Positions 7,714 to 23,568 of a stretch of 64,000 bases of DNA are shown piece by piece (the first letter of the stretch is position 1; every line of letters begins with the position of its first letter). Position numbers and translations under genes: made by a program. The notes beneath the pieces were generated by a model that saw only the letters and a list, made by a program, of their open reading frames with translations, did no database searches and was not told the DNA's origin. The DNA comes from an uncultured Gemmatimonadales bacterium (GTDB lineage Bacteria > Gemmatimonadota > Gemmatimonadetes > Gemmatimonadales > GWC2-71-9), in contig CAWETL010000003.1 in assembly GCA_963812085.1 (NCBI GenBank), positions 215,314 to 279,313 of the forward strand, given 5' to 3'.

Positions 7714-7800
7714 GATGGGGTGGGGCGCAAATTCTTGACGGGGTAGGGGCGCAGGTTTGTGATGGGGTAGGGGCGCACAGCCGTGCGCCCCTACCCCATC
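7714..7800. repeat. REP cluster: three tandem GA(T/C)GGGGT(A/G)GGGGCGCA half-sites, the last forming a perfect 18-4-18 palindrome (7761-7800)
   Basis: GATGGGGTAGGGGCGCAC-AGCC-GTGCGCCCCTACCCCATC read directly. Overlaps the 3' end of the RAYT gene. Confidence 0.85.
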
Positions 7801-8324
7801 CGGATTTCTGATGGTGTCGGCCCGCGCCAGCGCCGGGGGTTCTCACTGACGTACCATCTTGCACGTGCTATCGCGTCCGGGGTCCGGAGAATCGATTCGT
7901 AGAAGCTGCGTTGCCATATCCGTCTGGGATCTATCCCAAAGGGCGACGGGTTCTGCACTGACCGCAATGCGCGGATCTTGCTTGTCGAGGTGGCCTTGAA
8001 CTGCGCGATCAGCGATCCCAGTGATCGCCCAGGTCGCTCCATCCGTGGTTCGGAGTGAGAGTGGGGCCGGGCTGATGCAGGACGAAAAGTGACGATGGCA
8101 TGAAAGTGGTCAGGCATGATGACGAATGCGTCGAGCAACACTTCCTTGCGCAGCTCGGCCGATCGCAGCCATTCGCGACGCACGATTCGGCCGGCCGCGC
8201 TGAGCACCATCCGACGCCTGACGACGGCGCCGAGAATCGGCGCCCGCGCCTGGGTCACAATGGTCACGAAGTACGTGGCTGGGCCCGCGTAGTCGAAGCC
8301 GGGCAATCGTATGCTGCGACGCAT
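7791..8324 (-). CDS. REP-associated tyrosine transposase (RAYT; IS200/IS605-like Y1 HUH family)
   Basis: 177 aa with HUH motif PDHFHAIV and C-terminal catalytic-Tyr context IWQRSFYESILR. Flanked on both sides by related GTAGGGG(C/T)GCAC palindromes. Confidence 0.8.
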   Translation of the reverse strand: MRRSIRLPGFDYAGPATYFVTIVTQARAPILGAVVRRRMVLSAAGRIVRREWLRSAELRKEVLLDAFVIMPDHFHAIVTFRPASARPHSHSEPRMERPGRSLGSLIAQFKATSTSKIRALRSVQNPSPFGIDPRRIWQRSFYESILRTPDAIARARWYVSENPRRWRGPTPSEIRMG

Positions 8325-9256: not shown

Positions 9257-10255
9257 ATGCCCCGTATCTTTTCCGGCATCCAACCCTCCGGCGAACTGCA
9301 TATCGGCAACTGGCTCGGCGCCGTCCAGAACTGGGTGGCGCTGCAGGAGCACAACGAGTGCTTCTACTCGATCGTGGACCTGCACGCCATCACCGGTCAG
9401 CACGACCCGGCCACGCTCCAGCGCCGCACCATCGACATGGCCATCGGGCTGCTGGCGGCCGGGGTGGACCCGTCGCGGGTCACGCTCTTCGTGCAGTCGC
9501 ACGTGCCCGAGCACGCGGAGCTGATGTGGCTCCTGACTTCGGTGACGCCGCTCGGCGAACTGGAGCGGATGACGCAGTTCAAAGATAAGTCCCAGCGGGT
9601 CGAGAGCATTCCCGCCGGGCTCCTCAGCTACCCGATCCTGATGGCGGCCGACATCCTGCTCTATCGCGCCGAGCAGGTGCCGGTGGGCGACGACCAGATC
9701 CAGCACCTCGAGCTGGCGCGGGTCATCGCGCGGCGGTGGAACGCCGAGTACGGCGGAGGGAGCGCCTTCTTCCCGGAGCCGCAGTCGCTGTTGACGCCGG
9801 CCAGGCGCATCCTCGGCCTCGACGGGCAGGCCAAGATGTCGAAGAGCCTCGGCAACACCATCGGGCTGCTGGAGAGCCCGGAGGAGATCTGGCAGAAGCT
9901 CCGGCCGGCGATGACCGACCCGGCGCGCAAGACGAAGAAGGATCCCGGCACGCCCGAGATCTGCAACATCTACGCGCTGCACAGGTATTTCTCGCCGCCG
10001 GAGACGGTCACGGAGGTCGCGCGGAAGTGCCGAGGCGCGGAGTGGGGCTGCCTCGACTGCAAGCGCGTGCTGGCGGACAACATGTCGGCGGCGCTCGCGC
10101 CGATCCGGGAGCGGGCCGCGGCGCTCCGCGCCGACGAGGCGGCGGTGCACGCCGTCCTGGCCCGGGGCGCGGCCCGTGCGCGCGCCGAGGCGCGCAAGAC
10201 GCTCGACCAGGTCAAGGCGAAGATGGGCTTCCTCGACGCGCAGGCGTCCCGGTGA
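9257..10255 (+). CDS. trpS: Tryptophan--tRNA ligase
   Basis: Class I motifs GELHIGN (HIGH) and KMSKS. 332 aa. Confidence 0.95.
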   Translation: MPRIFSGIQPSGELHIGNWLGAVQNWVALQEHNECFYSIVDLHAITGQHDPATLQRRTIDMAIGLLAAGVDPSRVTLFVQSHVPEHAELMWLLTSVTPLGELERMTQFKDKSQRVESIPAGLLSYPILMAADILLYRAEQVPVGDDQIQHLELARVIARRWNAEYGGGSAFFPEPQSLLTPARRILGLDGQAKMSKSLGNTIGLLESPEEIWQKLRPAMTDPARKTKKDPGTPEICNIYALHRYFSPPETVTEVARKCRGAEWGCLDCKRVLADNMSAALAPIRERAAALRADEAAVHAVLARGAARARAEARKTLDQVKAKMGFLDAQASR

Positions 10256-10278
10256 CCTCCCCTGCCCCCGGAGTGACC

Positions 10279-11349
10279 ATGGAGAAGATCATCAAGGCGG
10301 CCGTCGAACGCGGGGCCTCCGACCTGCACATCAAGGCCGGCGACGTCTTCCGCGCGCGGATCAACGGCCGGCTGGTGCCGCTGACCAAGCAGCGGCTCAC
10401 GCCGGACCAGACCCGCGCCATCGCGCACAAGCTGATCCCCAGCGAGCAGGACCGGGCCCATCTCGAGCGGCTCCGCGACTTCGACTGTTCGTGGGGCATG
10501 CCGGGCGTGGGGCGGTTCCGGGTCAACGTCCTCCGCCAGCGCTCCTCGTTCATGATCGTGATGCGGGTCATCCCCTTCGCGGTCCCGTCCATCGAGTCGC
10601 TGGGGCTGCCCGAGGCGCTCGCCACCCTCGCCGACTCGGACCGCGGCCTCCTCCTCGTGACGGGAGTCAGCGGGAGCGGGAAGACCAGCACCGTCGCCGC
10701 GCTGATCGAGCGCATCAACCGGACCAAGCAGAAGCACATCGTCACGATCGAGAACCCGATCGAGTTCCTGCACCGCGACGTCAACTGCTCGGTGACCCAG
10801 CGCGAGGTGGGGGTGGACACCGAGAGCGTGGCGGTCGGGCTCCGGGCCGCGCTCCGGCAGGACCCCGACGTGATCCTCATCGGCGAGACCCGCGATCCGG
10901 ACACCGCCGACATCGCGGTCAAGGCGGCGGAGACGGGCCACCTCGTCATCTCCGCGATGCCCACCCCCGACGTGACGACGACGCTCGAGCGCCTGGTGGC
11001 CATGTTCCCCGCCGAGGAGCGCGACATCGGCCGCGTCCGCCTGTCGGAGGCGCTCCGCGGCATCGTGTCGCAGCAGCTCCTGCCCCGGGCCGACGAGGAG
11101 GGCAGGGTGGCGGCGTTCGAGATCCTGGTGAACACGCCGCAGGTGCGCGCCTGCCTCAAGACCCCGGCGAAATGGGGGGAGCTCCGGACGCTCATGGCCC
11201 AGGGCCGCGAGGCGCACGGGATGCAGACCTTCGAGCAGAGCCTGGCCGACCTGGTGGCCGCGAAGTCCATCACCGAGGAGACGGCGGCCGCGGCGGCCCG
11301 CGGCGACCCGGTCCCCGAGGGACGCGACCGCCGCAAGAAGGCGCGCTGA
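10279..11349 (+). CDS. pilT: PilT/PilU-like type IV pilus retraction ATPase (divergent)
   Basis: ATG 10279. DLHIKAG N-terminus, Walker A GVSGSGKTS, IENPIEF, LIGETRD and AAETGHLV. Confidence 0.75.
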   Translation: MEKIIKAAVERGASDLHIKAGDVFRARINGRLVPLTKQRLTPDQTRAIAHKLIPSEQDRAHLERLRDFDCSWGMPGVGRFRVNVLRQRSSFMIVMRVIPFAVPSIESLGLPEALATLADSDRGLLLVTGVSGSGKTSTVAALIERINRTKQKHIVTIENPIEFLHRDVNCSVTQREVGVDTESVAVGLRAALRQDPDVILIGETRDPDTADIAVKAAETGHLVISAMPTPDVTTTLERLVAMFPAEERDIGRVRLSEALRGIVSQQLLPRADEEGRVAAFEILVNTPQVRACLKTPAKWGELRTLMAQGREAHGMQTFEQSLADLVAAKSITEETAAAAARGDPVPEGRDRRKKAR

Positions 11350-12524: not shown

Positions 12525-13802
12525 ATGTTCGATCCGAAGACCCAGTGTGTGGTGGTGGTGGGCGCCCAGTGGGGCGACGAGGGGAAGGGAAAGCTGGTCG
12601 ACGTCCTGTCCGAGCGCGCCGACTGCGTGGTGCGCTACCAGGGAGGCGCCAACGCGGGGCACACGGTGGTCATCGGCGAGGAGCAGTTCATCCTCCAGCA
12701 GATCCCCTCGGGGATCCTGCATGCCCGGACCAGCTGCGTCATCGGCAACGGCGTGGTGCTCGATCCCGAGACGCTCTTCATGGAGCTCGACGGGCTGACG
12801 GGGCGGGGGGTGGACACGTCGGGCCGGCTGTTCGTCTCGGAGCGGGCCCATCTCGTGCTGCCCTATCACAAGCTGCTCGACGCGGCCAGCGAGAAGTCGC
12901 AGAAGATCGGCACCACCGGCCGCGGCATCGGGCCGACCTACGAAGACAAGTACGGCCGCCGCGGGGTGCGCGTCATCGACCTCCGGGACGGCGCCGCCCT
13001 GCGCGGCCTGCTGGCGGAGCGGCTCGACCGGGCCAACCGGCTGCTCGGGATGATGGGGGCCGCGCCGGCGTCGCTGGAGGAGCACGTGGCGCTCCTCGAG
13101 CGCCTGGCGCCGCGGCTCCTGCCCCTGGCCACCGACACCGGGCTCCTGGTGCACCGCGCGCTTCGGGCGGGGAAGCGGGTGCTGCTCGAGGGGGCCCAGG
13201 GGGCGCTGCTCGACGTGGACCACGGCACCTATCCCTACGTGACGAGCTCCAACACCACCGCGGGCGGGGCCTCGGTGGGCGCGGGCATCGGCCCGACGGC
13301 CATCGACGGCGTCCTGGGGGTCGTGAAGGCCTACACGACGCGGGTGGGGAACGGCCCGCTGCCGACGGAAGCACTGGGAGAGGGCGGGGAGGCGCTGCAG
13401 CGGATCGGCGGCGAGTTCGGCGCGGTCACCGGGCGGCCCCGGCGCTGCGGCTGGTTCGACGCCAACGTGGTGCGGTACTCGGTCCGCGTGAACGGGCTCA
13501 CCGGGCTGGCGGTCACCAAGCTGGACGTGCTGGACACCTTCGCCGAGATCCCGGTCGGGACCGGGTACCGGGTGGATGGGGAACTGACGGAGGAATTGCC
13601 GGCGGAGGTGGAGCGGCTGGAGCGGGTCGACCCGGTGTACGAGGTGCTGCCGGGGTGGCGGAAGTCCACCGAGGGCGCCCGGCGGATGGCCGACCTGCCC
13701 CCGCAGGCCCGGGCCTACCTGGACCGGCTGCAGGACCTCGCCGGCGCCCCCATCCGCTACGTGAGCGTGGGGACGCGGCGGGACCAGATCATCGAGGTGT
13801 AG
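12525..13802 (+). CDS. purA: Adenylosuccinate synthetase
   Basis: GAQWGDEGKGK P-loop and TTGRGIGPTYEDK. 425 aa. Confidence 0.95.
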   Translation: MFDPKTQCVVVVGAQWGDEGKGKLVDVLSERADCVVRYQGGANAGHTVVIGEEQFILQQIPSGILHARTSCVIGNGVVLDPETLFMELDGLTGRGVDTSGRLFVSERAHLVLPYHKLLDAASEKSQKIGTTGRGIGPTYEDKYGRRGVRVIDLRDGAALRGLLAERLDRANRLLGMMGAAPASLEEHVALLERLAPRLLPLATDTGLLVHRALRAGKRVLLEGAQGALLDVDHGTYPYVTSSNTTAGGASVGAGIGPTAIDGVLGVVKAYTTRVGNGPLPTEALGEGGEALQRIGGEFGAVTGRPRRCGWFDANVVRYSVRVNGLTGLAVTKLDVLDTFAEIPVGTGYRVDGELTEELPAEVERLERVDPVYEVLPGWRKSTEGARRMADLPPQARAYLDRLQDLAGAPIRYVSVGTRRDQIIEV

Positions 13803-13814
13803 CGCGGACCGGGC

Positions 13815-14750
13815 TCAGCTGACCCGGTTCTTCTCGTATTTCAGGTTTCGCGGCGCGAACCACCACTGGTAGTTGCGGGTCACGGGCAGGCCGCCGTTGA
13901 GCCGGATGTCGGTCGGGTCCGACTGCAGGGTGGCGAACACCCGCGTGGCCATGATGTCGTTCCAGTCGTTCTCGCCGCTGGCATCGGTGGGGTCCGCGGT
14001 CGGGGCCAGGTTCCCGTTGGTGAAGACCAGGTTGACCTTGATGCTGTCCACCCCCGTCGCGATCAGCTCCCCCGCCGGCGTCCGGTCGGCGTTGAGCCGT
14101 TCCGCCCGCATCAGCCGCTGGTTCTGCACGTAGTACTCGACGAACTTCAACTTCATGATGACGGTGCTGGTGCTGCTGAGCTGCAGGTTGCGGGCGTAGG
14201 CCCCTTCGTGCTGCAGCAGCGTGCTGTCGGGGGAGAAGGTCACCGAGGCCTTGCTCCCCGTGCGCGTCACGTTGGTCACCTGGATCAGCCGGCGCTCGTT
14301 GCTCGACTGCAGCAGCGCGAGGTCCCCGATGGCGATGTCGAAGCCCACCGTGTCCACGTCGACGCAGTAGGTGCCGCAGGTGCCGGTGGCCGGTGCCAGG
14401 GCCGGCCCGGCGTACTGGATGGTGTGGGGCGAGGCCGGCACGTTGTTGGTGTAGGGCACGCTCAGGATCACGATGGTGTCGCCGCGGGCGGAGAGGGTGC
14501 CGAAGCGCACCGAGGAGCTGATGCCGACGCCGGTCTCGGAGAGGTCGCGCATCAGCGCCTCGTTGATGAACCGGGCGTTGCGCTCGATGCCCTCCCGCTC
14601 CCGGTTGCCCGACATGCCGCGCCAGGTGGAGGCCACGAGGCCGGTCGCGGCGGCGAGCACGACGAGCCCCACCGTCATGGCGATCAGCAGCTCGACGAGG
14701 GTGAAGCCGGCCCGGCCGCTGGAAGCGTGGTGCGTGCGCATGGCGATCAC
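13815..14750 (-). CDS. PilW-like minor (pseudo)pilin, set 1
   Basis: Prepilin-type N-terminus GRAG|FTLVELLIAMTVGLVVL. 311 aa. Confidence 0.7.
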   Translation of the reverse strand: MIAMRTHHASSGRAGFTLVELLIAMTVGLVVLAAATGLVASTWRGMSGNREREGIERNARFINEALMRDLSETGVGISSSVRFGTLSARGDTIVILSVPYTNNVPASPHTIQYAGPALAPATGTCGTYCVDVDTVGFDIAIGDLALLQSSNERRLIQVTNVTRTGSKASVTFSPDSTLLQHEGAYARNLQLSSTSTVIMKLKFVEYYVQNQRLMRAERLNADRTPAGELIATGVDSIKVNLVFTNGNLAPTADPTDASGENDWNDIMATRVFATLQSDPTDIRLNGGLPVTRNYQWWFAPRNLKYEKNRVS

Positions 14751-15118
14751 CGGTAGATGAGGGTGACGATCTGGACGGGCTGGGCACCCTGCGGATAGGT
14801 CACGTTGCAGGTGACCCGGTAGAGGTTGTTGCCCAGGTCGGCCACTTCGAGCGAGCGCCGGTACTTGCCGTCGGCGGCGAGGGTCCCGGTCTCGTCCACC
14901 GAGACGGCGGGTTCCGCGACCGGATCGGGCGTGCGGCTCCGCACCTCCTCGACGTAGTTGCGGGAAATCCCCAGGGCCACGCTGCGCATGGCGCTGGTGG
15001 ACTGGGCGTGGAGCAGCACCGCCTGGGACTTGGTCAGGGCCAGGAGCCCGATGGTCAGGATGACCACGGCCATGATGACCGAGATCAGGGTGAATCCCGC
15101 CTCGCTGTTGCGCTTCAT
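14747..15118 (-). CDS. PilV-like minor pilin, set 1 (Ser instead of Glu at +5)
   Basis: N-terminus SEAG|FTLISVIMAVVILTIGLLAL. 123 aa. ATGA overlaps on both sides. Confidence 0.65.
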   Translation of the reverse strand: MKRNSEAGFTLISVIMAVVILTIGLLALTKSQAVLLHAQSTSAMRSVALGISRNYVEEVRSRTPDPVAEPAVSVDETGTLAADGKYRRSLEVADLGNNLYRVTCNVTYPQGAQPVQIVTLIYR

Positions 15119-15678
15119 CGCCAGGTGCCCCCTTCAGAAGTCCAGATGCGGATGCCGCCGGCGCCCGACACGGTCACCGCCGCGACCGCCGTATTGTCGC
15201 CGGGTCGGCGCACGTAGATGACGCCCCGGGTGCCGAAGGGCGTCGTCAGCCCCCGGGCGTCGAAGTCGATCTGCGGCGTCGGGAAGGTGATGCTGCCGGC
15301 GCCGGAGAAGTCGGGGATGTCGGGCTGCGTCGCGCGGCCATAGGTCACGTCGTTCGGCAGCGTCCGCGTCCCGCCGTACAAGTGCAGCGAATCCCGCTCG
15401 GCGGTGCTCTGCCCGATGACGCCGTCGCGGTCGAAGTCGAGATACCCGGTGTAGGAGTTCGACGCCGGGGTGAAGACCACCCGGACCACGGCCCGGTAGG
15501 CCATCGCCTTGCTCCGGGCCAGTTCGAGGTCCGCCGCCAGGAGCGAGGCGGCCGCCCGGGCCTTCGTCTGGTCCGACACCCGGAGCCGGGGCACCATGAT
15601 CATCATGCCGATTCCCATGACGACGATCACGATGAGCATCTCGACCAGCGTAAAGCCGGAACGCGCGCGCGCAGTCAT
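15115..15678 (-). CDS. FimT/GspH-like minor pilin, set 1
   Basis: RSG|FTLVEMLIVIVVMGIG N-terminus. C-terminus ...GGIRIWTSEGGTWR parallels its paralog at 21322..21912. Confidence 0.65.
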   Translation of the reverse strand: MTARARSGFTLVEMLIVIVVMGIGMMIMVPRLRVSDQTKARAAASLLAADLELARSKAMAYRAVVRVVFTPASNSYTGYLDFDRDGVIGQSTAERDSLHLYGGTRTLPNDVTYGRATQPDIPDFSGAGSITFPTPQIDFDARGLTTPFGTRGVIYVRRPGDNTAVAAVTVSGAGGIRIWTSEGGTWR

Positions 15679-15687
15679 CGCCGGCTC

Positions 15688-17511
15688 CTAGTACACGGGC
15701 CGGAAGGAGGTCTGGAACACGCTGCCGACCACCGGGGTGCCCGGGGGCAGCTGCGTCGGGTCCTTGAAGCGCAGGTCGAACCGCCAGTCACGGGTCGGGA
15801 CGCCGTAGTAGTTGGTCCAGCTCCAGCGCCGCCGGGCGGCGTACTGGCTCTGGAACAGCGACACCAGCGAGCCGCGGTAGGTGACGGTCCTGCCGCTCCA
15901 GTTTTCCAGGAAGCGCGGGAAGTTCTCCAGCCCGCCGCCATAGCTGCCATTCGCCGTCGCTGGCGGGGGCGTGGGCACCGTGCACCCGCTCCGCTGCCAG
16001 TCGCACGGGGTGGCGGAGTGGCCGGCCGCGATGGCGGCGTAGACCGTCATGTTGCTCGCCGTGTTCTGGGGCGGGTTCGTCCAATCCGGGCCGCCGCCGG
16101 CCACGGTGTGGGTCCCGCCGCCGCCGGTGACGACGTGCGCGGCGTCGGTCCACGAGCCCGACAGGAAGGTGATCGCGTCCGCGATGAACGAGCTCGGGTA
16201 CCAGGTGCCGCCGGTGTTGTAGTCGCCCCAGAGGTACAGCGGGCGGTCGGTCGCGACGGTCACCGGCTGGCGGAGGGTCGCGCCGTTCCGGATGCGCACC
16301 ACGGGGTAGTCCCGCGACGGGTTCGTCGGGTCGACGTTCGTGAAGGTGATGTAGATGATGCTGTAGTTCCGGGCCGCGCTGGCGATGGCCCAGGTCTGGA
16401 GCGCGCCCATGTCGATCTGGAAGACGTCGGCGCCGATGTTCTCGCGCCCGTCCCAGAAGCCCTGGGGCAGCCCGGCGAACATGGCGCAGCTGGCGCCGGT
16501 GGGGAGCGGCGAGCCGATGATCGTGATCCCGGCGCAAGTGTTCACGTTGGCGAGCTGCGCCATGTCCACCGTCAGGTGCGCGGTGGCCTTCCAGGAGAAC
16601 TTGACGCCCTGCACGTCCGGGGTGTCGCCGCCGTTCCGGGGCATGACCAGCTGGATCGGGGGCATCCCGGCCGGCAGCGGGAGCGAGAGCGGCTGGACGC
16701 CGCTCACGCCGGTCATGATCCGGCCGTCGACGAGGCTGGTGCTGGCGGACACGAAGGAGCTGCCCGGGTTGCTCCGGCTGTCGAAGTTGAGGGTCCTGGC
16801 CACGCCGGAGGCGTTGTCGATCCGCACGCCGTTCTGGCGCTCGCTGTAGGCCTTGCGCTGCCAGAAGATGCTGTCGGGGGTGGTAATCAGGTCGTGGAAG
16901 CTGGTGATCGCCGAGCCGCCTGGCGTGAGGTAGAGGTTCGAGTTGGTGTGCACCCACCCGGCGAAGTCCATGTTCTGGCCGTTGTGGATCTCGAGGTCCT
17001 CATTGTAGAACACGCCGAACTGGAAGAGCGGAATCGACTGGGCATCGGCGCTGATGATCACCTGGCCGCGGTTGCCGGCGGGGTCGGTCGCGGTGATGCC
17101 GATGTCGATCTGCTGGTTGAGCCCGATGAGGCCGGCGTAGGTGCCGCTCGTGATGGTCCTGGGGATCGGGGCGCCCACCATCGTCACGGTCGGCGTGGCG
17201 AAGGTGAAGCCGGAGAGCGTGGGCAGGGTGACGGCGCTGATGTCCGCGGCGGTGATGACGCCGTCGGTCATGCGCTGGGCGAGCTGGCTCACCACCGCGT
17301 CCGAACCCGCCTCGGCGGCGTACTGCACCCGGGTGGCGCGGTAGTCGACGCTGCCCGACTTCTGCACCATCACGTAGCTGGCGACCGAGATGGCCACCAG
17401 GAGCGAGATCAGCACCAGGACGACCATCGTCGCCTCGAGCGCGAAGCCGCGCCGGTCGGCGAGCCGGGTCGTCGTCCGGCGGGGGGCCGGCAGGGGGCGA
17501 ACGAGCTGCAT
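15688..17511 (-). CDS. Large PilX-N-terminal-like pilus-associated protein, set 1 (607 aa)
   Basis: N-terminus RRGFALEATMVVLVLISLLVAISVASYV (PilX_N-like, without the classical G|FTLxE site) followed by about 560 aa of Gly/Thr/Asn-rich extracellular-type sequence. Confidence 0.55.
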   Translation of the reverse strand: MQLVRPLPAPRRTTTRLADRRGFALEATMVVLVLISLLVAISVASYVMVQKSGSVDYRATRVQYAAEAGSDAVVSQLAQRMTDGVITAADISAVTLPTLSGFTFATPTVTMVGAPIPRTITSGTYAGLIGLNQQIDIGITATDPAGNRGQVIISADAQSIPLFQFGVFYNEDLEIHNGQNMDFAGWVHTNSNLYLTPGGSAITSFHDLITTPDSIFWQRKAYSERQNGVRIDNASGVARTLNFDSRSNPGSSFVSASTSLVDGRIMTGVSGVQPLSLPLPAGMPPIQLVMPRNGGDTPDVQGVKFSWKATAHLTVDMAQLANVNTCAGITIIGSPLPTGASCAMFAGLPQGFWDGRENIGADVFQIDMGALQTWAIASAARNYSIIYITFTNVDPTNPSRDYPVVRIRNGATLRQPVTVATDRPLYLWGDYNTGGTWYPSSFIADAITFLSGSWTDAAHVVTGGGGTHTVAGGGPDWTNPPQNTASNMTVYAAIAAGHSATPCDWQRSGCTVPTPPPATANGSYGGGLENFPRFLENWSGRTVTYRGSLVSLFQSQYAARRRWSWTNYYGVPTRDWRFDLRFKDPTQLPPGTPVVGSVFQTSFRPVY

Positions 17512-17703
17512 GTGGCACTCCTGAACGGGTCACGGGGTCGAGTGCTGTGGCCAGCAACTGCCAGATCGGAATCGCAATTCGGGTGCCCCGCAGATCCAGT
17601 TCGGTAACAACATACGGCGCAAGAAGATATGCATTTTATCGACATGGTTTGCCGCGCAGCCGGATGCCGATCGTGCCGTGCCTTGCGTGCAACCCATTGC
17701 ACG

Positions 17704-17736
17704 GAAAACGAAAGGCCCTCCGGGTCAATGGAGGGC
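17704..17736 (-). terminator. Rho-independent terminator candidate between the two pilin sets
   Basis: The minus strand reads GCCCTCC-ATTGACCC-GGAGGGC followed by CTTTCGTTTTC, about 55 nt after the stop of the 17790..19709 gene. Confidence 0.5.
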
Positions 17737-17789
17737 GTTTCGAGGGCAGCGCGCCCGGTCGGCGACCGCGAGTCGCCGGCCGGGGAGTG

Positions 17790-19709
17790 TCAGTTCTGGT
17801 TGGCCGCGTACCAGCCGGCCACGTTGAACCGGGTCGGGTCGAGTTCGTAGAACCGGTTCTTGATGAACACGCCGGTGGTCGGGTAGTACGGCGGCGGGTC
17901 GGTGGCGCCGCAGGCGTCGTACTGGTAGCGCTTGACGTAGCCTTCGCCGCTGGTGAGGCCCACGGCGCCGCGCCGGGACTGGATGATCCCGCCGAACGTC
18001 ACCAGGCAGCCGCGCCCGGCGTTGAAGCTCCCGCCGATGAGGCAGCGCTCGGTGTTGCTGGCCCCCTCGGCGTTTTCTTCCGCGCCGAACGTCTTGAGGG
18101 TCAGGAAGAAGCCGTGGATCGTCTCGTCGGTGTTGGTGACGTAGCTCCGGAAGGTGCCGGTGGGCGAGGTCGCGTGGGAGGCGTCGTTGTTGATGGTCTG
18201 GGGCGCGTTCATGGTGTTGTTGGCCACGATGAGCGACTGGCCCGAGAAGTACCCGGCGATGTCGCCGGTGGTGCAGTCGCGGGTCTGGCCCTGGTAGTAG
18301 GTGATGTCGTCGCCGAAGATGATGTTGCCGGTGGCGGCGACCGTGACCCGGCCGTGGATCACGCCGTCCACGATCACCTTGCCCGCCACGAAGATGACGC
18401 CCTTGAAGCTGGTGTTGAACTGGCGGCTGAGCGGGAAGAGGTAGGCCGCGTCGGGACGGTTGGTGATGACCCCGCCGAGCGCGGCCAGCGAGGCCTGGAT
18501 GCCGCCCGGGGCCTGCACCCACGCGCCGCCGTCGGGATGGCCGGTGGTCAGCCAGTTGGCGTTGCCGCCCGTGGCGATGGCCGGGATGGTGAGCACCGAG
18601 TCCCCGCCGAGGAAGCAGCGGGAACTGTTGCCCTTGACCAGCGACGAGTCGCGCCGCGCGATCTTGTTGGCGTTCGTGGTGCCGGCCACGTGCAGGTGAA
18701 TGGCCTGCGTGGTGGTGTCGTGATAGTACGCCGGCATGAAGCGGCCGCCGGCGGCGAAGTCGCCGCAGTTCGGCGAGCGCTCGAGATAGCTGCCCGTGGT
18801 GGAGGTCGTGATGGGCAGGCTGGCGGAGACGTACTTTTCCGGCGGGATGATGGTCGTCGTCGTCCCGCCCTGGTAGACCATGAAGAAGCCCATGACGCCG
18901 TAGGGCGCGCCGAGGTCGATGGTCAGGAAGTGCACCCGGGTCTTCGCCTCGCCGGCGTCGCCGGCGGTGGAGCCCGTGAAGCGGGTGCTGCCGATGGTCG
19001 CCATGCTGTCGAGCTTGTTCAGGTCCGCCACGGTGGGCATCGGGATGCGCGCCACGCCGAGGAGGGGCGGCTTGCCGAAGACCGCGTTGCCCTGGTTGTT
19101 GATCGTCGAGTTGGCGGTGGAGACCTGGTCGAAGAAGGTCGCCGCCGGGCTGGGCGAGGTGTTGATCCGGATCAGGTCGTTGGAGTGCACCGGGCCGCGG
19201 ATCTGGTCGCCGCCGCCGAAGACGATGGTGCTCCCGCTGGTGTCGGTCTCGAAGTCGGTGAAGTACGCGAACTTGGAGAAGCTCTCCTGGTTCACCTCGA
19301 GCCGCCGGACCGCCTTGTTGCCGAAGCTGTCGCGCGCCACCGAGATGATGCTGCCGACCACGCCGTACTGCCCGCTCGCGATGCCGCTGGGGCCGACGTA
19401 GGTGGACCGGGTCACCTTGGGGATCACCACGTTGCCCGCCGTCTTGACCGCCACGTCGTTCTCGATGGTGGTGTAGCCGGTGGTCGGGTAGAGCGTCCGG
19501 GTCGTGTTGAGCCGGCTCCGGGCCTCCTCGAGGCCGGAGAGCGCCGCGGCGTCGACGGCGGCCGCCCGTTCGGTGTTCTTGCCGACGAGGTTGGCGTTGA
19601 GCGTCATCATCACCGCCGCGATGGCGATCGCGGAGACGGCGAACGCCACCAGCATGGTCGTGATGAGCGCGATGCCGCGCCGGTCGCGCAGGAAGCGCAG
19701 GGAGCACAT
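17790..19709 (-). CDS. Large PilX-N-terminal-like pilus-associated protein, set 2 (639 aa)
   Basis: ATG 19709 gives MCSLRFLRDRRGIALITTMLVAFAVSAIAIAAVMM. The C-terminal part has beta-helix-like repeats (KGVIFVAGKVIVDGVIHGRVTVAATGNIIFGDDITY). Confidence 0.55.
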   Translation of the reverse strand: MCSLRFLRDRRGIALITTMLVAFAVSAIAIAAVMMTLNANLVGKNTERAAAVDAAALSGLEEARSRLNTTRTLYPTTGYTTIENDVAVKTAGNVVIPKVTRSTYVGPSGIASGQYGVVGSIISVARDSFGNKAVRRLEVNQESFSKFAYFTDFETDTSGSTIVFGGGDQIRGPVHSNDLIRINTSPSPAATFFDQVSTANSTINNQGNAVFGKPPLLGVARIPMPTVADLNKLDSMATIGSTRFTGSTAGDAGEAKTRVHFLTIDLGAPYGVMGFFMVYQGGTTTTIIPPEKYVSASLPITTSTTGSYLERSPNCGDFAAGGRFMPAYYHDTTTQAIHLHVAGTTNANKIARRDSSLVKGNSSRCFLGGDSVLTIPAIATGGNANWLTTGHPDGGAWVQAPGGIQASLAALGGVITNRPDAAYLFPLSRQFNTSFKGVIFVAGKVIVDGVIHGRVTVAATGNIIFGDDITYYQGQTRDCTTGDIAGYFSGQSLIVANNTMNAPQTINNDASHATSPTGTFRSYVTNTDETIHGFFLTLKTFGAEENAEGASNTERCLIGGSFNAGRGCLVTFGGIIQSRRGAVGLTSGEGYVKRYQYDACGATDPPPYYPTTGVFIKNRFYELDPTRFNVAGWYAANQN

Positions 19710-19720
19710 GGGCGTGGGCC

Positions 19721-20905
19721 TCACGGGTGGAGGGGCGGTGTGACCGTCGCCATGGTCGAGAGCGACGGGGTGCAGTCCTGGGCGGCGACGGCGTACTGGT
19801 ACGCCGAGTCGACGAGCGCCGACTGGTCGGCGAAGCTGGGCGACGTGGCGCCCGAGGGCACCGACGCGAGCGGCTCGTTCCACGTCGTGGCCCCCACCAT
19901 GCGGCGCCAGATGATGTAGGCCTGGACGTCCGACTCGCCGCCGGTCTCGTCCACCGCCTGGTTCCAGCGGAGCAGCATGAAGGTGTCGGGCGGCGCCGCG
20001 GCGGTGTTGATGGTCCACGTGGCGGTCAGCCCCGAGCCGAAGATCGGCAGGTCGCCGCAGCTGGTGACCTTCTTGGTCCCGACGTTCGGCATCGGCACCA
20101 TGAACGAGATCGCCCGGGTGCGCTGCGCGGCCCCCGTGAGCCCGTTGGTCACCGTGAACGCCACCTCGACCGACGCCAGGCTGTCGATCCGGGCCGCCGC
20201 GGCGGTGTCGGAGGGCATGCCGTGGACGCCCTGGGTGTGACGGAGCGGCATCCAGGCGGTCGGCACGCTGTCGAGGGAGGACATCGACGTGCCGGCGGCG
20301 GGCACGCGCTTGTAGTAGTAGCGGAAGAAGTTCCGGCCGGTGGTCGGGATGACGTTCCGGATCACCACCTCCGGCGCCTGGTCGTTGACCTGGCGCTCGA
20401 GGACGTAGTCGTTGGTCGGCGTGGCGGTCGAGGTGTCCAGCTGGAAGAACCAGGTGATCGTCTCGGCCGGGCTGTTGATGCCGGCGTTGCCGTCGGCGGA
20501 GTAGCTGGAGTCGGGATAGTTGAACGCCGGGCTCGACCCCGGCAGGGCGAAGCGCTGCGAGGCGGTGAGCGCGTTGCGCTGGCCGGCCGGGAGCCCGGGG
20601 TTGTAGTACACGGTGTAGAGGCTGTCCACGTTCGAGGCGTAGTCGGCGTTGAAGCTCACCGAATTGGTGCCCGCGTAGATGATGACGGGCTGCTTGTACG
20701 GCACGTTGGCCCCGGCCATCCGGATCTCCTCCTGCAGGAGCGAGCCGGAGAAGGTCAGGTTCTGGAGCATCCCCATCTCCTGCGAGTTCTTGTCCAGCCC
20801 CTTGCCCTGGGTGGACAGGAACTTGAGCGCGGCGCCCAGGATGATCGTGAAGACGGTGAGCGCGATGAGCATCTCGATCAGGGTCATGCCGCGGCGGTTC
20901 CGCAT
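19721..20905 (-). CDS. PilW-like minor pilin, set 2
   Basis: ATG 20905: MRNRRG|MTLIEMLIALTVFTIILG. 394 aa. Confidence 0.7.
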   Translation of the reverse strand: MRNRRGMTLIEMLIALTVFTIILGAALKFLSTQGKGLDKNSQEMGMLQNLTFSGSLLQEEIRMAGANVPYKQPVIIYAGTNSVSFNADYASNVDSLYTVYYNPGLPAGQRNALTASQRFALPGSSPAFNYPDSSYSADGNAGINSPAETITWFFQLDTSTATPTNDYVLERQVNDQAPEVVIRNVIPTTGRNFFRYYYKRVPAAGTSMSSLDSVPTAWMPLRHTQGVHGMPSDTAAAARIDSLASVEVAFTVTNGLTGAAQRTRAISFMVPMPNVGTKKVTSCGDLPIFGSGLTATWTINTAAAPPDTFMLLRWNQAVDETGGESDVQAYIIWRRMVGATTWNEPLASVPSGATSPSFADQSALVDSAYQYAVAAQDCTPSLSTMATVTPPLHP

Positions 20906-20919
20906 GGCCGGTCGCTCCT

Positions 20920-21321
20920 TCACTTGGCCACCGTGATCGTCCGGCTGACCGACGGCGTGAGGCCGGTGCCGGTGACGACGACGGTGATCCGCTTGTAGTT
21001 GTTGAGGGAGTCGGCCACGCCGGAGAGCGTGGCGTCGCCCGTCACCGTCGTGGTCCGCGTGAAGCCGTAGGTGCCGAGCCCGGTGACGGTGCCCTTGCAC
21101 TTGCCGGCGGAGGTCGAGTCGAGGGCGGCGTAGTTCGGTTCCGCCCGGCAGCGCGCGATCCAGGCGTCGGCGATGGCGTTGGCCTCGTTCCGGATCCGGT
21201 TGGTTCCCACGGCGTGGGTGAACTTGACCTGCGCGGCGGGGATCACCAGCAGGACGATGGCGAGCACCGTCACCGCGAGGACCACCTCGATCAGCGTGAA
21301 GCCTCCGACTCCCTTGCGCAT
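20920..21321 (-). CDS. PilV-like minor pilin, set 2
   Basis: KGVGG|FTLIEVVLAVTVLAIVLL. 133 aa. Confidence 0.7.
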   Translation of the reverse strand: MRKGVGGFTLIEVVLAVTVLAIVLLVIPAAQVKFTHAVGTNRIRNEANAIADAWIARCRAEPNYAALDSTSAGKCKGTVTGLGTYGFTRTTTVTGDATLSGVADSLNNYKRITVVVTGTGLTPSVSRTITVAK

Positions 21322-21912
21322 TCAGAACCCCCGAATCCAGGTGGTGCCGTTCCACCGCAGCCACTCGGCGCGGCCGGTGGCGCGGCTGATTTCCATGGCC
21401 CAGGTCTCGCTGCCGTGTCCTGGCGCTCCCGCCATCGCCTTGGCCGTGCTCAGGTAGACGCCGCCGGCCTCCTTGGCGCTCCCGTTGCGGTAGAACACGA
21501 TGTCGGGGAGGCTGGTGGTCTGCTCGGTGCTGATGAAGTTGATCGCGTTCGCGCCGAAGGGGCGGGCGGTGACCGTGGCCGGCTTCCCGAAGACGACGCC
21601 TTCGCCCAGGGAGACCGCCCGGACGCGCTCGCCGGGAGAGATGGACTCGTCATTGGTGGAATCATCGACCACCCGGAGCTGGCGGCGCGTGGCGTCGACG
21701 ATGACGACGACGTTGTGCTGCTTGGCGATCGCGTCCCGCTGCAGGGCCAGCATGGTGGTGCCCAGGGACTGCACCGACGACTTGGACCGGATCCCGGAGA
21801 GGTTGATGCTGGGGAGCGCGATCGCCGCCGTGATGCCGACGATGATGATCACGATCAGCATCTCGACCAGGGTGAACCCCGCCCGGGCCCTGACATGTCG
21901 CTTGCTCCCCAT
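21322..21912 (-). CDS. FimT/GspH-like minor pilin, set 2
   Basis: ATG 21912: MGSKRHVRARAG|FTLVEMLIVIIIVGITAAIALPS. The stop abuts the next gene's start. Confidence 0.7.
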   Translation of the reverse strand: MGSKRHVRARAGFTLVEMLIVIIIVGITAAIALPSINLSGIRSKSSVQSLGTTMLALQRDAIAKQHNVVVIVDATRRQLRVVDDSTNDESISPGERVRAVSLGEGVVFGKPATVTARPFGANAINFISTEQTTSLPDIVFYRNGSAKEAGGVYLSTAKAMAGAPGHGSETWAMEISRATGRAEWLRWNGTTWIRGF

Positions 21913-22236
21913 CGGTTCTCCCGCACGGATTCGAGTGGCCGGAACAGCCGGCGGCCGGGTGGGTGGCGAAGCGGCCGCCCGGTGGCGCCGAAGAACACGC
22001 CGGTCTCTGTGGAGAAAGAGCAATTCGAGTGCCCACTGTCGGCAATTACATAAGCGCTTGTTGCAGAATGGGTTGGACGCCGACCGCCGGCCACCGATCG
22101 CGCACGTGACCGCCGATCGTGCCGCGGATTGCGCGCAGTGCCTTGCATCCGGCCCGTTGCTTGTCGGTCCCCCGGGCCCCGTCTATTATCCGCCCGTACC
22201 CGAAGCGATCCCTTCCCCGACCCCGCGAGCCGGCAG

Positions 22237-23568
22237 ATGGCCGACACCACCCTCATGGACAAGATCGTGTCGCTCTGCAAGCGGCGCGGTTTCATCTTTC
22301 AGTCGTCGGAGATCTACGGCGGCCTCGGCTCCGTCTGGGACTACGGCCCCCTCGGCGTCGAGCTCAAGAAGAACGTCAAGGACCGCTGGTGGCGGGCCAT
22401 GGTCCACGCCCGCGACGACATCGAGGGTCTCGACGCGGCCATCCTGATGCACCCCAAGGTCTGGGAGGCCTCGGGGCACGTCTCCGGATTCACCGACCCG
22501 CTGGTCGACTGCAAGACCTGCAAGGCGCGCTTCCGCGCGGACAAGATCCAGGACGCCCAGTGCCCGCAGAAGCCCAGCAAGCGGCCGGGCGAGCACACCA
22601 CCTGCGAGCTGACCGAGCCGCGGATGTTCAACCTCATGTTCAAGACCTTCATGGGGCCGGTGGAGGAGTCCGCGGCCGTGGTGTACCTCCGCCCCGAAAC
22701 GGCGCAGGGGATCTACGTCAACTACCTCAACGTCCTCCAGGGTTCGCGGCAGAAGGTGCCCTTCGGCATTGCGCAGATCGGGAAGGCGTTCCGCAACGAG
22801 ATCACGCCCGGCAACTTCATCTTCCGGACCCGCGAGTTCGAGCAGATGGAAATGCAGTTCTTCGTCAAGCCGGGCACCGACGCCGAGTGGTTCGAACACT
22901 GGCGGGAGTGGCGGATGGCCTGGCACCACGCCCTCGGCCTCAATCCCGCCAGGCTGCGCTGGCACGAACACGGCCCCGGCGAGCTGGCGCACTACGCCAA
23001 GGCGGCGTACGACATCGAGTACGAGTTTCCCTTCGGCTGGAACGAAATCGAGGGGATCCACAACCGCACCGACTTCGACCTGCAGCGGCACCAGAGCTAC
23101 TCCGGCAAGAAGCTCGACTACTTCGACCAGCCCAACAACGAGCGGTTCGTCCCCTTCGTCGTCGAGACCTCGGCGGGCGCCGACCGGGTGACGCTCACCA
23201 CGCTGGTGGACGCCTACCGCGAGGAGCAGGTGGAGGGGGAGACGCGCGTGGTGCTCGGCTTCCACCCCGCCATCGCCCCCGTCAAGGTCGGGGTCTTCCC
23301 GCTCGTCAAGAAGGACGGGATGCCGGAGTACGCCACCCGCCTCTATCACGAGATCAAGCAGCACGTCAACGCGTTCTACGACGACAGCGGCGCCGTGGGC
23401 CGCCGGTACCGCCGCATGGACGAGGCCGGCACGCCGTTCTGCGTCACGGTGGACGGACAGACGCTGCAGGACGGCACCGTGACGGTGCGGCACCGGGACG
23501 CGATGAACCAGGACCGCATCGCGGCGGACCAGCTCAAGGGGTGGGTGAAGGCACGGGTCGAGGGCTGA
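22237..23568 (+). CDS. glyQS: Glycine--tRNA ligase (dimeric class II, GlyQS type)
   Basis: ATG 22237: [46 protein letters not shown]... [21 protein letters not shown] (motif 2). Confidence 0.95.

What the first reader, a model, noticed from the sequence alone, without database searches (positions are those of the whole stretch)
13815..21912. Two circularly permuted minor-pilin sets, each with a roughly 600-640 aa PilX-like protein; no PilY1 or major pilin
Eight co-oriented genes form two paralogous quartets.

- Set 2 is ordered FimT/GspH-like, PilV-like, PilW-like, large PilX-like (21912 down to 17790).
- Set 1 is ordered large PilX-like, FimT/GspH-like, PilV-like, PilW-like (17511 down to 13815).
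- Six of the proteins carry G|(F/M)TL(I/V)E-type prepilin N-termini.
- The two large proteins carry only a PilX_N-like hydrophobic N-terminus (RRGIALITTML..., RRGFALEATMVV...).
- From memory, characterised PilX proteins are much shorter, and minor-pilin operons usually end with PilY1.

The large Gly/Thr/Asn-rich, partly beta-helix-like C-terminal regions may therefore replace PilY1 as tip or adhesin modules. In this window no prepilin peptidase, PilB/C/M-Q or major pilin gene is linked.
Basis: partly seen in the sequence, partly recalled or inferred. Interest (0 to 1): 0.65.

Follow-up and report, generated by a model that had tools for sequence, protein, structure and literature searches.

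The report
Two pilus-tip gene sets, giant caps
A soil Gemmatimonadales bacterium carries two old, diverged four-gene sets for the tip complex of its single type IV pilus, each with a roughly 600-residue cap protein. One cap resembles the Thermus DNA-receptor pilin ComZ and the other the cyanobacterial HpsA, a layout recently described in cyanobacteria but not in this phylum.

Summary
**Observation: confirmed.** Eight intact, co-oriented minus-strand genes form two quartets.
- Set 2 is ordered A2-B2-C2-D2 (21912 down to 17790). Set 1 is ordered D1-A1-B1-C1 (17511 down to 13815).
- Each protein's best match inside the cluster is its counterpart in the other set, at 26-32% identity.

**What it is.** These are two alternative core minor-pilin (GspH/I/J/K-like) priming and tip sets.
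- They must feed the one type IV pilus machine encoded on another contig, which holds pilA, pilBTC, pilMNOPQ and pilD.
- D2's model matches only ComZ of Thermus in the PDB (Foldseek E 7.6e-7). ComZ is a tip pilin with an inserted beta-solenoid.
- D1 shares two collinear motifs with cyanobacterial HpsA (PilX_EPS). It belongs to a superfamily of about 4,000 clusters at 50% identity.
- Both operon types keep their internal gene order in the loci examined, occur alone or together, and show dN/dS of 0.21-0.47. They are not remnants.
- No PilY1 match was found, but that search had no positive control.

A bulky PilX standing in for PilY1 fits the evidence. A 2026 preprint on cyanobacteria proposes the same thing.

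**Novelty.** This is a new member of a known kind.

**Oddity.** In set 1 the PilV-like protein has Ser5 and the cap has Glu4. Both are conserved and unexplained.

The parts
21322..21912 (-). A2: GspH/FimU-like minor pilin of set 2 (196 aa, GFTLVE)
   Evidence: N_methyl scores 29 bits against a 21.2 cut-off. GspH and ComGD match the N-terminal half at E 1e-9 to 1e-10, below their cut-offs. 27% identical over the full length to A1, which passes Pfam GspH.
20920..21321 (-). B2: PilV/GspI-like minor pilin of set 2 (133 aa, GFTLIE)
   Evidence: N_methyl scores 27.8 bits. TIGR02523 PilV scores 28.4 bits, below its 52.2 cut-off, and GspI gives E 4e-5. Glu5 is present in 12 of 12 homologues.
19721..20905 (-). 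C2: PilW/GspJ-position minor pilin of set 2 (394 aa, GMTLIE) with a C-terminal Fn3-like domain
   Evidence: N_methyl scores 34.5 bits. The family profile A4 matches titin Fn3 domains over residues about 284-385, E 1e-20. The PilW/GspJ label rests on gene position and size only.
17790..19709 (-). D2: cap pilin of set 2 (639 aa; alternative GTG start at 19724), ComZ-like, no Glu5 (RGIALIT)
   Evidence: DUF4900 scores 28.1 bits, just under the 29.4 cut-off, and homologues carry PF16241. The AF2 model has pLDDT 78 and shows a long alpha-1 helix, four beta strands, then many short strands. Foldseek against the PDB gives ComZ 6qvi at E 7.6e-7, probability 1.0; the next hit is at E 1.3. No Glu5 in 13 of 13 homologues.
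17512..17789 (-). 278-nt spacer between the two operons, with a terminator-like hairpin (17736-17715) and a GTGCAA-N4-TTGCAC palindrome
   Evidence: GCCCTCC...GGAGGGC followed by CTTTCGTTTT was found by the terminator scan, and the sequence was read directly. An AGGAG Shine-Dalgarno site lies ahead of the D1 ATG.
15688..17511 (-). D1: cap pilin of set 1 (607 aa), short HpsA/PilX_EPS-like protein, N-terminus RRGFALEA (Glu4)
   Evidence: PilX_N scores 19.4 bits, below the 25.5 cut-off. The HpsA model NF038301 matches two collinear pieces: D1 156-218 to HpsA 283-344, and D1 517-559 to HpsA 1353-1393. AF2 pLDDT is 80. No significant PDB fold match. The profile finds 3,988 clusters at 50% identity.
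15115..15678 (-). A1: GspH/FimU-like minor pilin of set 1 (187 aa, GFTLVE)
   Evidence: Pfam GspH scores 37.9 bits against a 21 cut-off, and N_methyl 30.2 bits.
14747..15118 (-). B1: PilV/GspI-like minor pilin of set 1 (123 aa, GFTLIS, no Glu5)
   Evidence: N_methyl scores 24.9 bits. TIGR02523 PilV scores 35.7 bits, below its cut-off, and GspI matches over the full length at E 1.5e-4. Ser5 is present in 70 of 76 homologues.
13815..14750 (-). C1: PilW/GspJ-position minor pilin of set 1 (308-311 aa, GFTLVE)
   Evidence: N_methyl scores 30.5 bits. The profile is homologous to C2 only over the first 71 columns (hhalign probability 97.6%). No family match beyond the N-terminus.
10246..11349 (+). 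PilT-like ATPase. It is context only, kept near these sets in the one distant locus checked, and may not be part of the system.
   Evidence: Pfam T2SSE scores 153 bits. The same trpS - PilT-like - M28 - purA neighbourhood lies beside a set-2 operon in locus L009.

Best explanation
The region holds two separately transcribed operons. Each encodes a complete alternative core minor-pilin set: a GspH/FimU-like adaptor, a GspI/PilV-like subunit, a GspJ/PilW-position subunit and a GspK/PilX-position cap.

**Proposed mechanism.**
- Prepilin peptidase PilD processes the small subunits.
- The four proteins assemble in the inner membrane on the single PilC/PilMNOP platform and prime polymerisation of the major pilin.
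- The complex ends up at the pilus tip.
- The cap subunit is a pilin-like domain carrying a body of roughly 450 residues, too large to fit in the pilus shaft.
- D2 is ComZ-like and has no Glu5. D1 is a short HpsA/PilX_EPS-like protein.
- The cap closes the tip and sets what the tip binds. In a genome without a detectable PilY1, it plausibly takes over the PilY1 plug and adhesin role.
- Which set primes a given pilus would decide the kind of filament made. By analogy, the ComZ-type set would serve DNA capture and the Hps-type set adhesion, motility or polysaccharide-linked functions.

**Shown here:** the gene content, the homologies, the conservation and the presence of only one machine.

**Inferred:** tip location, priming, the PilY1-substitute role and the division of labour between the sets.
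For: **Pilin identity.**
- Six small proteins carry class III signal motifs above the Pfam and TIGRFAM cut-offs. A1 passes Pfam GspH.
- The cognate pairs are each other's best matches within the cluster.

**D2.**
- Its N-terminus is GspK/PilX-style with no Glu5 in 13 of 13 homologues.
- The AF2 model (pLDDT 78) has a 60-residue alpha-1 helix and a four-strand sheet, then many short strands.
- ComZ is its only significant PDB fold match (E 7.6e-7, probability 1.0). ComZ is a tip pilin that binds PilA2 and DNA (PMC6561018).

**D1.**
- Two collinear matches to the HpsA model.
- Ten of ten distant D1 relatives match the same two HpsA regions, and four of ten pass PilX_N.
- The D1 and D2 profiles are homologous over the pilin domain and the start of the added body (hhalign probability 95%).

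**One machine.**
- The genome has one secretin, one PilC and one PilD, plus PilB, PilT, PilMNOP and two pilA genes, all on contig C9.
- ComEC is present.

**Conservation.**
- About 55 of 80 set-1 loci read D1-A1-B1-C1, and most other readings are short contigs or ORF-sorting effects.
- Set 2 keeps A-B-C-D in nearly all of the roughly 15 loci that hold it. It lies upstream of set 1, downstream of it, or is absent.
- In 151 genomes of the phylum, the D1 family occurs in 40, the D2 family in 65, and both in 15.
- dN/dS is 0.21-0.47 for all eight genes.

**Separate operons.** A terminator-like hairpin lies in the 278-nt spacer.

**Precedent.** Cyanobacteria have two core minor-pilin sets, Com and EPS, with beta-solenoid PilX proteins. 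Mutants show they prime different filaments (bioRxiv 10.64898/2026.02.12.705559).
Against: - There is no experimental or expression evidence for this organism. No metatranscriptome held the region.
- The ComZ match is at fold level only. TM-scores are 0.22-0.26, RMSD is about 16 A, and there is no sequence signal even with a profile.
- D1 has no significant PDB fold match. It scores 48 bits against the HpsA cut-off of 400.
- C1 and C2 are called PilW/GspJ-like from gene position alone.
- PilX_N is below its cut-off for D1 and not detected for D2.
- The absence of PilY1 rests on a search whose controls never gave a hit.
- Some Gemmatimonadota are reported to have PilY1.3-like homologues (PMC13190605).
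- Set 1 breaks the rule that only the cap lacks Glu5: B1 has Ser5 and D1 has Glu4. Its stacking order may therefore differ from the model.
- A third small pilin-like trio sits in the main pilus cluster and could be the housekeeping primer.
- Both pilA genes read as frameshifted in this assembly, probably through indel errors.
Confidence: 0.7

Rival explanations
1. One or both sets build a short periplasmic pseudopilus that drives secretion of a polysaccharide or protein, as first proposed for HpsA-D in Nostoc. On this view they do not prime surface pili.
For: - D1 carries the HpsA motifs, and set 1 has the hpsA-then-pseudopilins gene order.
- hpsA-D are described as a membrane protein plus pseudopilins that may work with the type IV pilus system to export hormogonium polysaccharide (PMC6495340).
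- A1, A2, B1 and B2 score about as well against the T2SS GspH and GspI models as against pilus models.
- A second PilB-like ATPase stands alone at C9:325577-327862.
Against: - The genome has only one secretin, one PilC-type platform protein and one PilD, all in or matching the pilus cluster.
- No GspG-type major pseudopilin lies next to the sets.
- No glycosyltransferase or polysaccharide genes flank them. The neighbours are purA and glyQS.
- In cyanobacteria the EPS-type set was shown to prime long motility pili.
Confidence: 0.13
2. The large proteins are not pilus subunits. They are membrane-anchored or secreted surface proteins, such as adhesins or carbohydrate-active beta-helix enzymes, that are merely co-transcribed with pseudopilins.
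For: - Beta-solenoids are typical of glycan-binding and lytic proteins. ComZ's solenoid most resembles an ice-binding protein.
- PilX_N is below its cut-off for D1 and absent for D2.
- D1 has no pilin-like hit in the PDB.
Against: - Both N-termini have the RG(I/F)AL hydrophobic segment of GspK/PilX.
- Both models start with a helix of about 60 residues followed by a beta sheet.
- D2's only significant fold match is a pilin.
- Distant D1 relatives pass PilX_N and touch the GspK N-terminus.
- D1 is linked to A1-B1-C1 in nearly all of the 80 loci.
Confidence: 0.07
3. The two sets are redundant duplicates drifting towards loss, made dispensable by the third pilin-like trio in the main pilus cluster.
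For: - A third trio with a short PilX-like protein lies beside pilA and pilMNOPQ.
- Many genomes of the same family lack D1, D2 or both.
- One genome (G126) has a D2 copy with four internal stop codons.
Against: - All eight ORFs are intact.
- dN/dS is 0.21-0.47 against three close relatives.
- Gene order and the N-terminal signatures are conserved across 80 loci down to about 43% identity.
- The two sets share only 26-32% identity, so they are old, separately maintained lineages and not recent duplicates.
Confidence: 0.03

Closest known systems
Cyanobacterial dual core minor-pilin sets, PilX_Com and PilX_EPS/HpsA (Schuergers et al. 2026, bioRxiv 10.64898/2026.02.12.705559)
   Same: - Two diverged FimT-PilV-PilW-PilX sets in one genome feed one pilus machine.
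- Every PilX is a pilin fold with a bulky added beta-rich body.
- One lineage is HpsA-related and the other is not.
- PilY1 is absent, and the bulky PilX is proposed to act as the tip plug.
- Some genomes have one set and others have several.
   Different: - The phylum differs: Gemmatimonadota.
- D1 is 607 aa against about 1,500 aa for HpsA. It shares only two short motifs (48 bits against a cut-off of 400).
- No polysaccharide genes are linked.
- D2's assignment to the Com lineage rests on the ComZ fold match alone.
- Set 1 has Ser5 in its PilV-like protein and Glu4 in its cap. Whether the cyanobacterial EPS sets share this was not tested.
- The functions here are untested.
ComZ of Thermus thermophilus HB27 (PDB 6QVI; Salleh et al. 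2019, PMC6561018)
   Same: - A pilin-like protein of 500-640 aa encoded among the minor pilins.
[quoted passage not shown]
- It is the only significant PDB fold match of D2 (E 7.6e-7).
- It was argued on steric grounds to sit at the tip.
   Different: - There is no detectable sequence similarity, and global TM-scores are low (0.22-0.26).
- Gene order differs. In Thermus comZ lies between pilA2 and pilA3, whereas D2 is last in its set.
- DNA binding and the ComZ lysines were not examined.
- Whether the insertion point lies between the last two strands could not be checked without model coordinates.
HpsA-HpsBCD of Nostoc punctiforme (NCBIfam NF038301, NF038303, NF038304; PMC6495340)
   Same: - A large protein is encoded first, followed by three pseudopilin genes, as in D1-A1-B1-C1.
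- D1 matches HpsA regions 283-344 and 1353-1393 in the same order.
   Different: - D1 is far below the HpsA equivalog cut-off and lacks the central roughly 1,000 residues.
- There are no hpsE-K glycosyltransferase genes.
- Matches to HpsB and HpsC are confined to the N-terminal helix.
FimU-PilVWX-PilY1 of Pseudomonas and Myxococcus, and GspH-I-J-K of type II secretion
   Same: - Four-subunit priming logic.
- Set 2 has the H-I-J-K gene order.
- In set 2 only the last subunit lacks Glu5.
- Several sets per genome, as in M. xanthus.
   Different: - No PilY1 was detected.
- The cap subunits are several-fold larger than proteobacterial PilX or GspK (from memory).
- Set 1 has a permuted gene order and a non-canonical Glu pattern.

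Membership tests
Type IV pilin / pseudopilin (class III signal, PF07963 / TIGR02532) | A G|(F/M)xxxE prepilin cleavage and methylation motif followed by a hydrophobic alpha-1N helix, scoring above the curated cut-off | tested here: met
   A1, A2, B1, B2, C1 and C2 score 24.9-34.5 bits against a 21.2 cut-off. B1 has Ser in place of Glu5. A PilD peptidase is present in the genome.
GspH / FimU-FimT adaptor pilins (PF12019) | A GspH domain above the Pfam cut-off | tested here: met
   A1 scores 37.9 bits against a cut-off of 21. A2 does not pass on its own but is 27% identical to A1 over its full length.
PilV / GspI (TIGR02523, TIGR01707) | A score above the equivalog cut-off | tested here: inconclusive
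   B1 scores 35.7 bits and B2 28.4 bits against a cut-off of 52.2. GspI gives E 1.5e-4 and 4.4e-5. These are the best-scoring small-pilin families for B1 and B2, but both are sub-threshold.
PilW / GspJ | Sequence or fold similarity of the globular domain to PilW or GspJ | tested here: not met
   C1, C2 and their family profiles give no match beyond the N-terminal helix. The label rests on gene position and size.
PilX / GspK cap pilins (PF14341 PilX_N) | A PilX_N-type N-terminus above the cut-off, no Glu5, and last position in the set | tested here: inconclusive
   D1 scores 19.4 bits against a cut-off of 25.5, and D2 has no match. D2 lacks Glu5 in 13 of 13 homologues, whereas D1 has Glu4. Four of ten distant D1 relatives pass PilX_N. 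D2 is last in its set and D1 is first in its set.
ComZ-like tip pilins | A pilin domain plus a large beta-solenoid, shown by fold similarity to 6QVI | tested here: met
   For D2, Foldseek gives E 7.6e-7 and probability 1.0 over about 700 columns, and the next hit is at E 1.3. The caveat is TM 0.22-0.26. D1 does not meet this test.
ComZ-like tip pilins | [quoted passage not shown] | not testable with these tools
The secondary-structure order is compatible with the topology. Binding needs experiments.
HpsA (NCBIfam NF038301 equivalog) | A full-length score of at least 400 bits | tested here: not met
   D1 scores 48.5 bits, from two collinear local matches only. It is related to HpsA but is not an HpsA equivalog. 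D2 has no match.
DUF4900 (PF16241) | A score above the 29.4-bit gathering cut-off | tested here: inconclusive
   D2 scores 28.1 bits, just under the cut-off. Most D2 homologues carry a precomputed PF16241 hit.
PilY1 (PF05567) | A C-terminal PilY1 beta-propeller domain | tested here: not met
   There is no match in D1 or D2, in the genome, or in 151 genomes of the phylum. The search never gave a hit in any control genome, so absence is not proven.

The most novel reading that the evidence does not exclude
The split between a ComZ/Com-type and an HpsA/EPS-type core minor-pilin set is not a cyanobacterial peculiarity. It would be an old, widespread way for PilY1-less bacteria to make two kinds of filament from one machine.

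Within it, the Gemmatimonadota Hps-type set uses a different tip architecture. Its PilV-like subunit has no Glu5 and its cap has an invariant Glu4. That pattern implies a changed stacking order or register in the priming complex.
Probability: 0.3. Interest if true: 0.6.

Novelty: new member of a known kind. Interest (0 to 1): 0.4.

Why it matters
- **Reach of the model.** The finding extends a very recent model to Gemmatimonadota, a common but little-studied soil phylum. In that model two alternative priming sets, each with a bulky PilX cap in place of PilY1, specify different pili. So far it has only been shown in cyanobacteria, with a structural precedent in Thermus.
- **An unnamed superfamily.** The HpsA-like cap proteins belong to a very large superfamily of about 4,000 clusters at 50% identity.
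- **Testable predictions.** The cap proteins should sit at the tip, the two sets should have separate functions, and PilY1 should be dispensable.
- **A concrete question.** The conserved Ser5/Glu4 pattern in set 1 bears directly on how tip complexes assemble.
- **Limits.** This is not a new kind of system, and nothing here is shown experimentally.

Tried and rejected
- **PDB sequence searches.** D1, D2, C1, C2 and the profiles A1-A4 gave nothing for the pilin bodies. The exception was an Fn3-like domain at the C-terminus of C2.
- **Foldseek on D1.** No significant PDB hit.
- **PilY1 search.** PF05567 gave no match in this genome or in 151 genomes of the phylum, and the tool's control genomes never gave a hit. 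Absence is suggestive only.
- **The "534-aa large pilin" on C9.** I rejected this as an artefact. It is pilA-2 read through a frameshift into a histidine-kinase ORF.
- **A separate type II secretion system.** Rejected, because the genome has one secretin, one PilC and one PilD.
- **Expression.** No metatranscriptome run held the region.
- **Search for D1 relatives outside the phylum.** The 80 loci kept from genome contigs were nearly all labelled Gemmatimonadota, with one labelled NC10. Names for distant superfamily members were mostly missing; one was from Verrucomicrobiae.
- **Sigma-54 promoter in the spacer.** None was convincing by eye.

Full report
**1. The observation**

The window is about 70% G+C. 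Homologues of the large proteins are named Gemmatimonadales. Between purA (12525-13802, plus strand) and glyQS (22129-23568, plus strand) lie eight intact minus-strand genes:

| Gene | Coordinates | Length | N-terminal motif |
|---|---|---|---|
| A2 | 21322-21912 | 196 aa | GFTLVE |
| B2 | 20920-21321 | 133 aa | GFTLIE |
| C2 | 19721-20905 | 394 aa | GMTLIE |
| D2 | 17790-19709 | 639 aa | RGIALIT |
| D1 | 15688-17511 | 607 aa | RGFALEA |
| A1 | 15115-15678 | 187 aa | GFTLVE |
| B1 | 14747-15118 | 123 aa | GFTLIS |
| C1 | 13815-14741 | 308 aa | GFTLVE |

- Within each set the genes abut or overlap by 4 nt.
- A 278-nt spacer separates the sets. It holds a terminator-like hairpin just after the D2 stop, followed by a 6-4-6 palindrome. 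The two sets are therefore most likely separate operons.
- In an all-against-all BLASTP, each protein's best partner is its counterpart in the other set.
  - A1/A2: 27% over the full length.
  - B1/B2: 32%.
  - C1/C2: 28% over 100 aa.
  - D1/D2: 26% over about 290 aa.
- The two-quartet reading and the permuted order (A-B-C-D against D-A-B-C) are correct.
- Two corrections apply. B1 lacks Glu5, so five proteins, not six, have the full motif. D1 and D2 are related only in their first 200-290 residues.

**2. The small proteins**

- All six pass the N-terminal methylation motif models.
- A1 passes Pfam GspH at 37.9 bits. A2 matches GspH and ComGD only N-terminally but aligns with A1 along its whole length.
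- B1 and B2 score best against PilV and GspI, below the cut-offs.
- C1 and C2 match nothing beyond the helix, even as family profiles. The PilW/GspJ label is positional only.
- The C2 family has a C-terminal Fn3-like domain at residues about 284-385, matching titin Fn3 at E 1e-20.

**3. The two large proteins**

*D2*
- DUF4900 scores 28.1 bits, just under the 29.4 cut-off. Most of its more than 400 homologues, nearly all unnamed, carry that domain.
- An AlphaFold2 model built from 39 sequences has pLDDT 78. It shows a 60-residue N-terminal helix, four long strands, then many short strands.
- Against the PDB its only significant match is ComZ of Thermus thermophilus (6QVI). E is 7.6e-7, probability 1.0, over about 700 columns. 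The next hit is at E 1.3.
- The global TM-score is low (0.22-0.26). Neither the single sequence nor the profile detects ComZ. The similarity is therefore at fold level only.
- ComZ is a GspK-like pilin domain with a roughly 380-residue triangular beta-solenoid. It binds the neighbouring minor pilin PilA2 and DNA, and for steric reasons was placed at the pilus tip (PMC6561018).

*D1*
- PilX_N is weak at 19.4 bits.
- NCBIfam HpsA matches in two collinear pieces: D1 156-218 to HpsA 283-344, and D1 517-559 to HpsA 1353-1393. The total of 48 bits is far below the 400-bit equivalog cut-off.
- The model has pLDDT 80 and again starts with a long helix and a sheet. It has no significant PDB match.
- A profile of the D1 family finds 3,988 clusters at 50% identity with E of 1e-3 or better, and 1,042 with E of 1e-30 or better.
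- Ten of ten distant members tested hit the same two HpsA regions. Four pass PilX_N and two touch the GspK N-terminus. One is from Verrucomicrobiae.
- D1 is therefore a short member of a very large HpsA-like PilX superfamily.

*D1 against D2*
- Their profiles align with 95% probability over the pilin domain and the first conserved motif of the added body, QESF...GPVHSND against QSIPLFQF...GWVHTN.

**4. The rest of the genome**

The assembly is 3.28 Mb in 18 contigs and 97% complete.

- It has one secretin, PilQ.
- It has one PilC, a single ORF with both T2SSF domains.
- It has one prepilin peptidase.
- PilB and PilT lie with PilC on contig C9. There are extra PilT-like ATPases and a second, stand-alone PilB-like ATPase.
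- The PilQ gene is followed by four ORFs read by position as pilP, pilO, pilN and pilM. Next come a PilR/PilS-type regulator pair, read by eye, and two tandem pilA genes.
- Between the putative pilM and pilR genes lies a third, small pilin-like trio:
  - a PilV-like protein of about 115 aa;
  - a 281-aa pilin that passes N_methyl;
  - a roughly 150-aa protein whose N-terminus looks PilX-like by eye but has no Pfam match.
- That trio is followed by a DUF4382 lipoprotein and not by a PilY1.
- ComEC is present.
- PF05567 (PilY1) finds nothing here or in 151 genomes of the phylum. The tool's control genomes contain no PilY1, so the negative result is unvalidated. A 2026 survey reports PilY1.3-like homologues in some Gemmatimonadota (PMC13190605).
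- With only one machine, all three sets must feed the same platform. A separate type II secretion system is not encoded.

**5. Comparative evidence**

- About 55 of the 80 loci carrying D1 homologues (43-80% identity) read D1-A1-B1-C1. Nearly all are labelled Gemmatimonadota and one is labelled NC10. Most other readings are short contigs or effects of how overlapping ORFs were sorted.
- The set-2 operon lies directly upstream in about 5 loci, as in the window. It lies downstream in about 9, or is absent. Its order is A2-B2-C2-D2 in nearly all of them.
- In 151 sampled genomes of the phylum:
  - the D1 family occurs in 40, including other classes;
  - the D2 family occurs in 65, only in the window's class;
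  - both occur in 15;
  - several genomes carry two to four copies of one type.
- Against three close relatives (dS 0.38-0.76), dN/dS is 0.21-0.47 for all eight genes. High GC3 makes dS rough, but the direction is clear.
- The sets are two old, independently maintained modules. They are neither recent duplicates nor remnants.

**6. N-terminal signatures**

- Set 2 follows the textbook rule. A2, B2 and C2 have Glu5 and only the cap D2 lacks it.
- Set 1 does not.
  - A1 and C1 have Glu5.
  - B1 has Ser5 in 70 of 76 homologues.
  - D1 has an invariant Glu one position early (GFALE, 80 of 81).
- Distant D1-superfamily members lack this Glu4.
- I cannot explain the pattern. It suggests a different register or stacking order in the set-1 complex.

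**7. How it most likely works**

- *Shown:* two complete, conserved H/I/J/K-like sets, one pilus machine, bulky cap proteins of two lineages, and no detectable PilY1.
- *Inferred from established T2SS and T4P priming models and from ComZ:* each set forms a priming complex on PilC/PilMNOP that starts pilA polymerisation and stays at the tip. The D body lies on the fibre axis, where it caps the tip and provides the binding surface.
- *By analogy only:* the ComZ-type set 2 may serve DNA capture, and the Hps-type set 1 may serve adhesion, motility or polysaccharide-linked functions.
- I put about 0.7 on the priming and tip-cap reading. I put about 0.3 on that particular division of labour.

**8. 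Comparison with what is known**

- The closest described system is the pair of cyanobacterial core minor-pilin sets (bioRxiv 10.64898/2026.02.12.705559).
  - All PilX proteins there carry a beta-solenoid like ComZ.
  - One subfamily is HpsA-related (PilX_EPS) and the other is competence-linked (PilX_Com).
  - Mutants show that the two sets prime different filaments.
  - The authors propose that the solenoid replaces the PilY1 plug.
- New here:
  - the phylum;
  - the compact 600-aa versions of both cap types;
  - the fixed D-first order of the Hps-type operon;
  - the Fn3 module on C2;
  - the Ser5/Glu4 signature.
- Neither D protein meets a curated family cut-off, so I file them as relatives and not as members.

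**9. Verdict**

- This is a new member of a known kind, of moderate interest (0.4).
- The region is a sound lead for extending the dual-priming-complex model beyond cyanobacteria, but it is not a new type of system.

**Side finding**

- Both pilA genes read as frameshifted in this assembly.
- Contigs from other soil and wetland metagenomes differ from the assembly by one base at both shift sites.
  - Three carry one extra base at the pilA-2 site.
  - Two lack one base at the pilA-1 site.
- Either change would restore the reading frame. These are most likely assembly indels.

Noticed in passing
Genome contig C9:448540-449454 (locus L108:6040-6955), outside the window: Both tandem major-pilin genes read as frameshifted in this assembly. 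In each, the N-terminal half is in one frame and the Cys-pair C-terminus is in another. Contigs from three other metagenomes carry one extra base at the pilA-2 shift site, and contigs from two lack one base at the pilA-1 shift site. Either change restores the frame, so these are probably single-base assembly errors. An apparent 534-aa 'large pilin' is a read-through artefact into a PilS-like kinase ORF.
   Followed up: partly
Genome contig C9:444002-445690, outside the window: A third, small pilin-like trio lies inside the main pilus cluster, between the ORF read by position as pilM and the pilR-like gene. It comprises a PilV-like protein of about 115 aa, a 281-aa pilin that passes N_methyl, and a roughly 150-aa short PilX-like protein with no Pfam match. 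A DUF4382 lipoprotein follows it, and there is no PilY1.
   Followed up: partly
window 19721-20020 (C-terminal part of C2): The C2 family has a C-terminal Fn3-like domain. Its profile matches titin Fn3 domains at E 1e-20, although a Pfam scan of the single sequence missed it. C2 is therefore a modular minor pilin with an Ig-like add-on.
   Followed up: partly
window 14747-15118 and 15688-17511: The Glu pattern in set 1 is non-canonical and conserved. The PilV-like B1 has Ser5 in 70 of 76 homologues, and the cap D1 has Glu4 in 80 of 81. Distant relatives of D1 lack Glu4.
   Followed up: partly
window 10246-11349: A PilT-like ATPase (T2SSE, 153 bits) lies between trpS and an M28 peptidase, 2.5 kb from set 1. 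The one distant locus checked (L009) keeps the same neighbourhood next to a set-2 operon.
   Followed up: partly
Genome contig C9:325577-327862, outside the window: A stand-alone 761-aa PilB/GspE-like ATPase has a C-terminus that looks by eye like a response-regulator receiver domain. No other secretion or pilus genes lie next to it.
   Followed up: no
window 7791-8324: An IS200/Y1-type transposase-like ORF (Y1_Tnp, 23.1 bits) lies beside the trpS region.
   Followed up: no
Locus L009:12087-14156: In a relative that has only set 2 at this locus, a 689-aa protein with no Pfam match and an HD-domain protein occupy the place where set 1 lies in the window.
   Followed up: no
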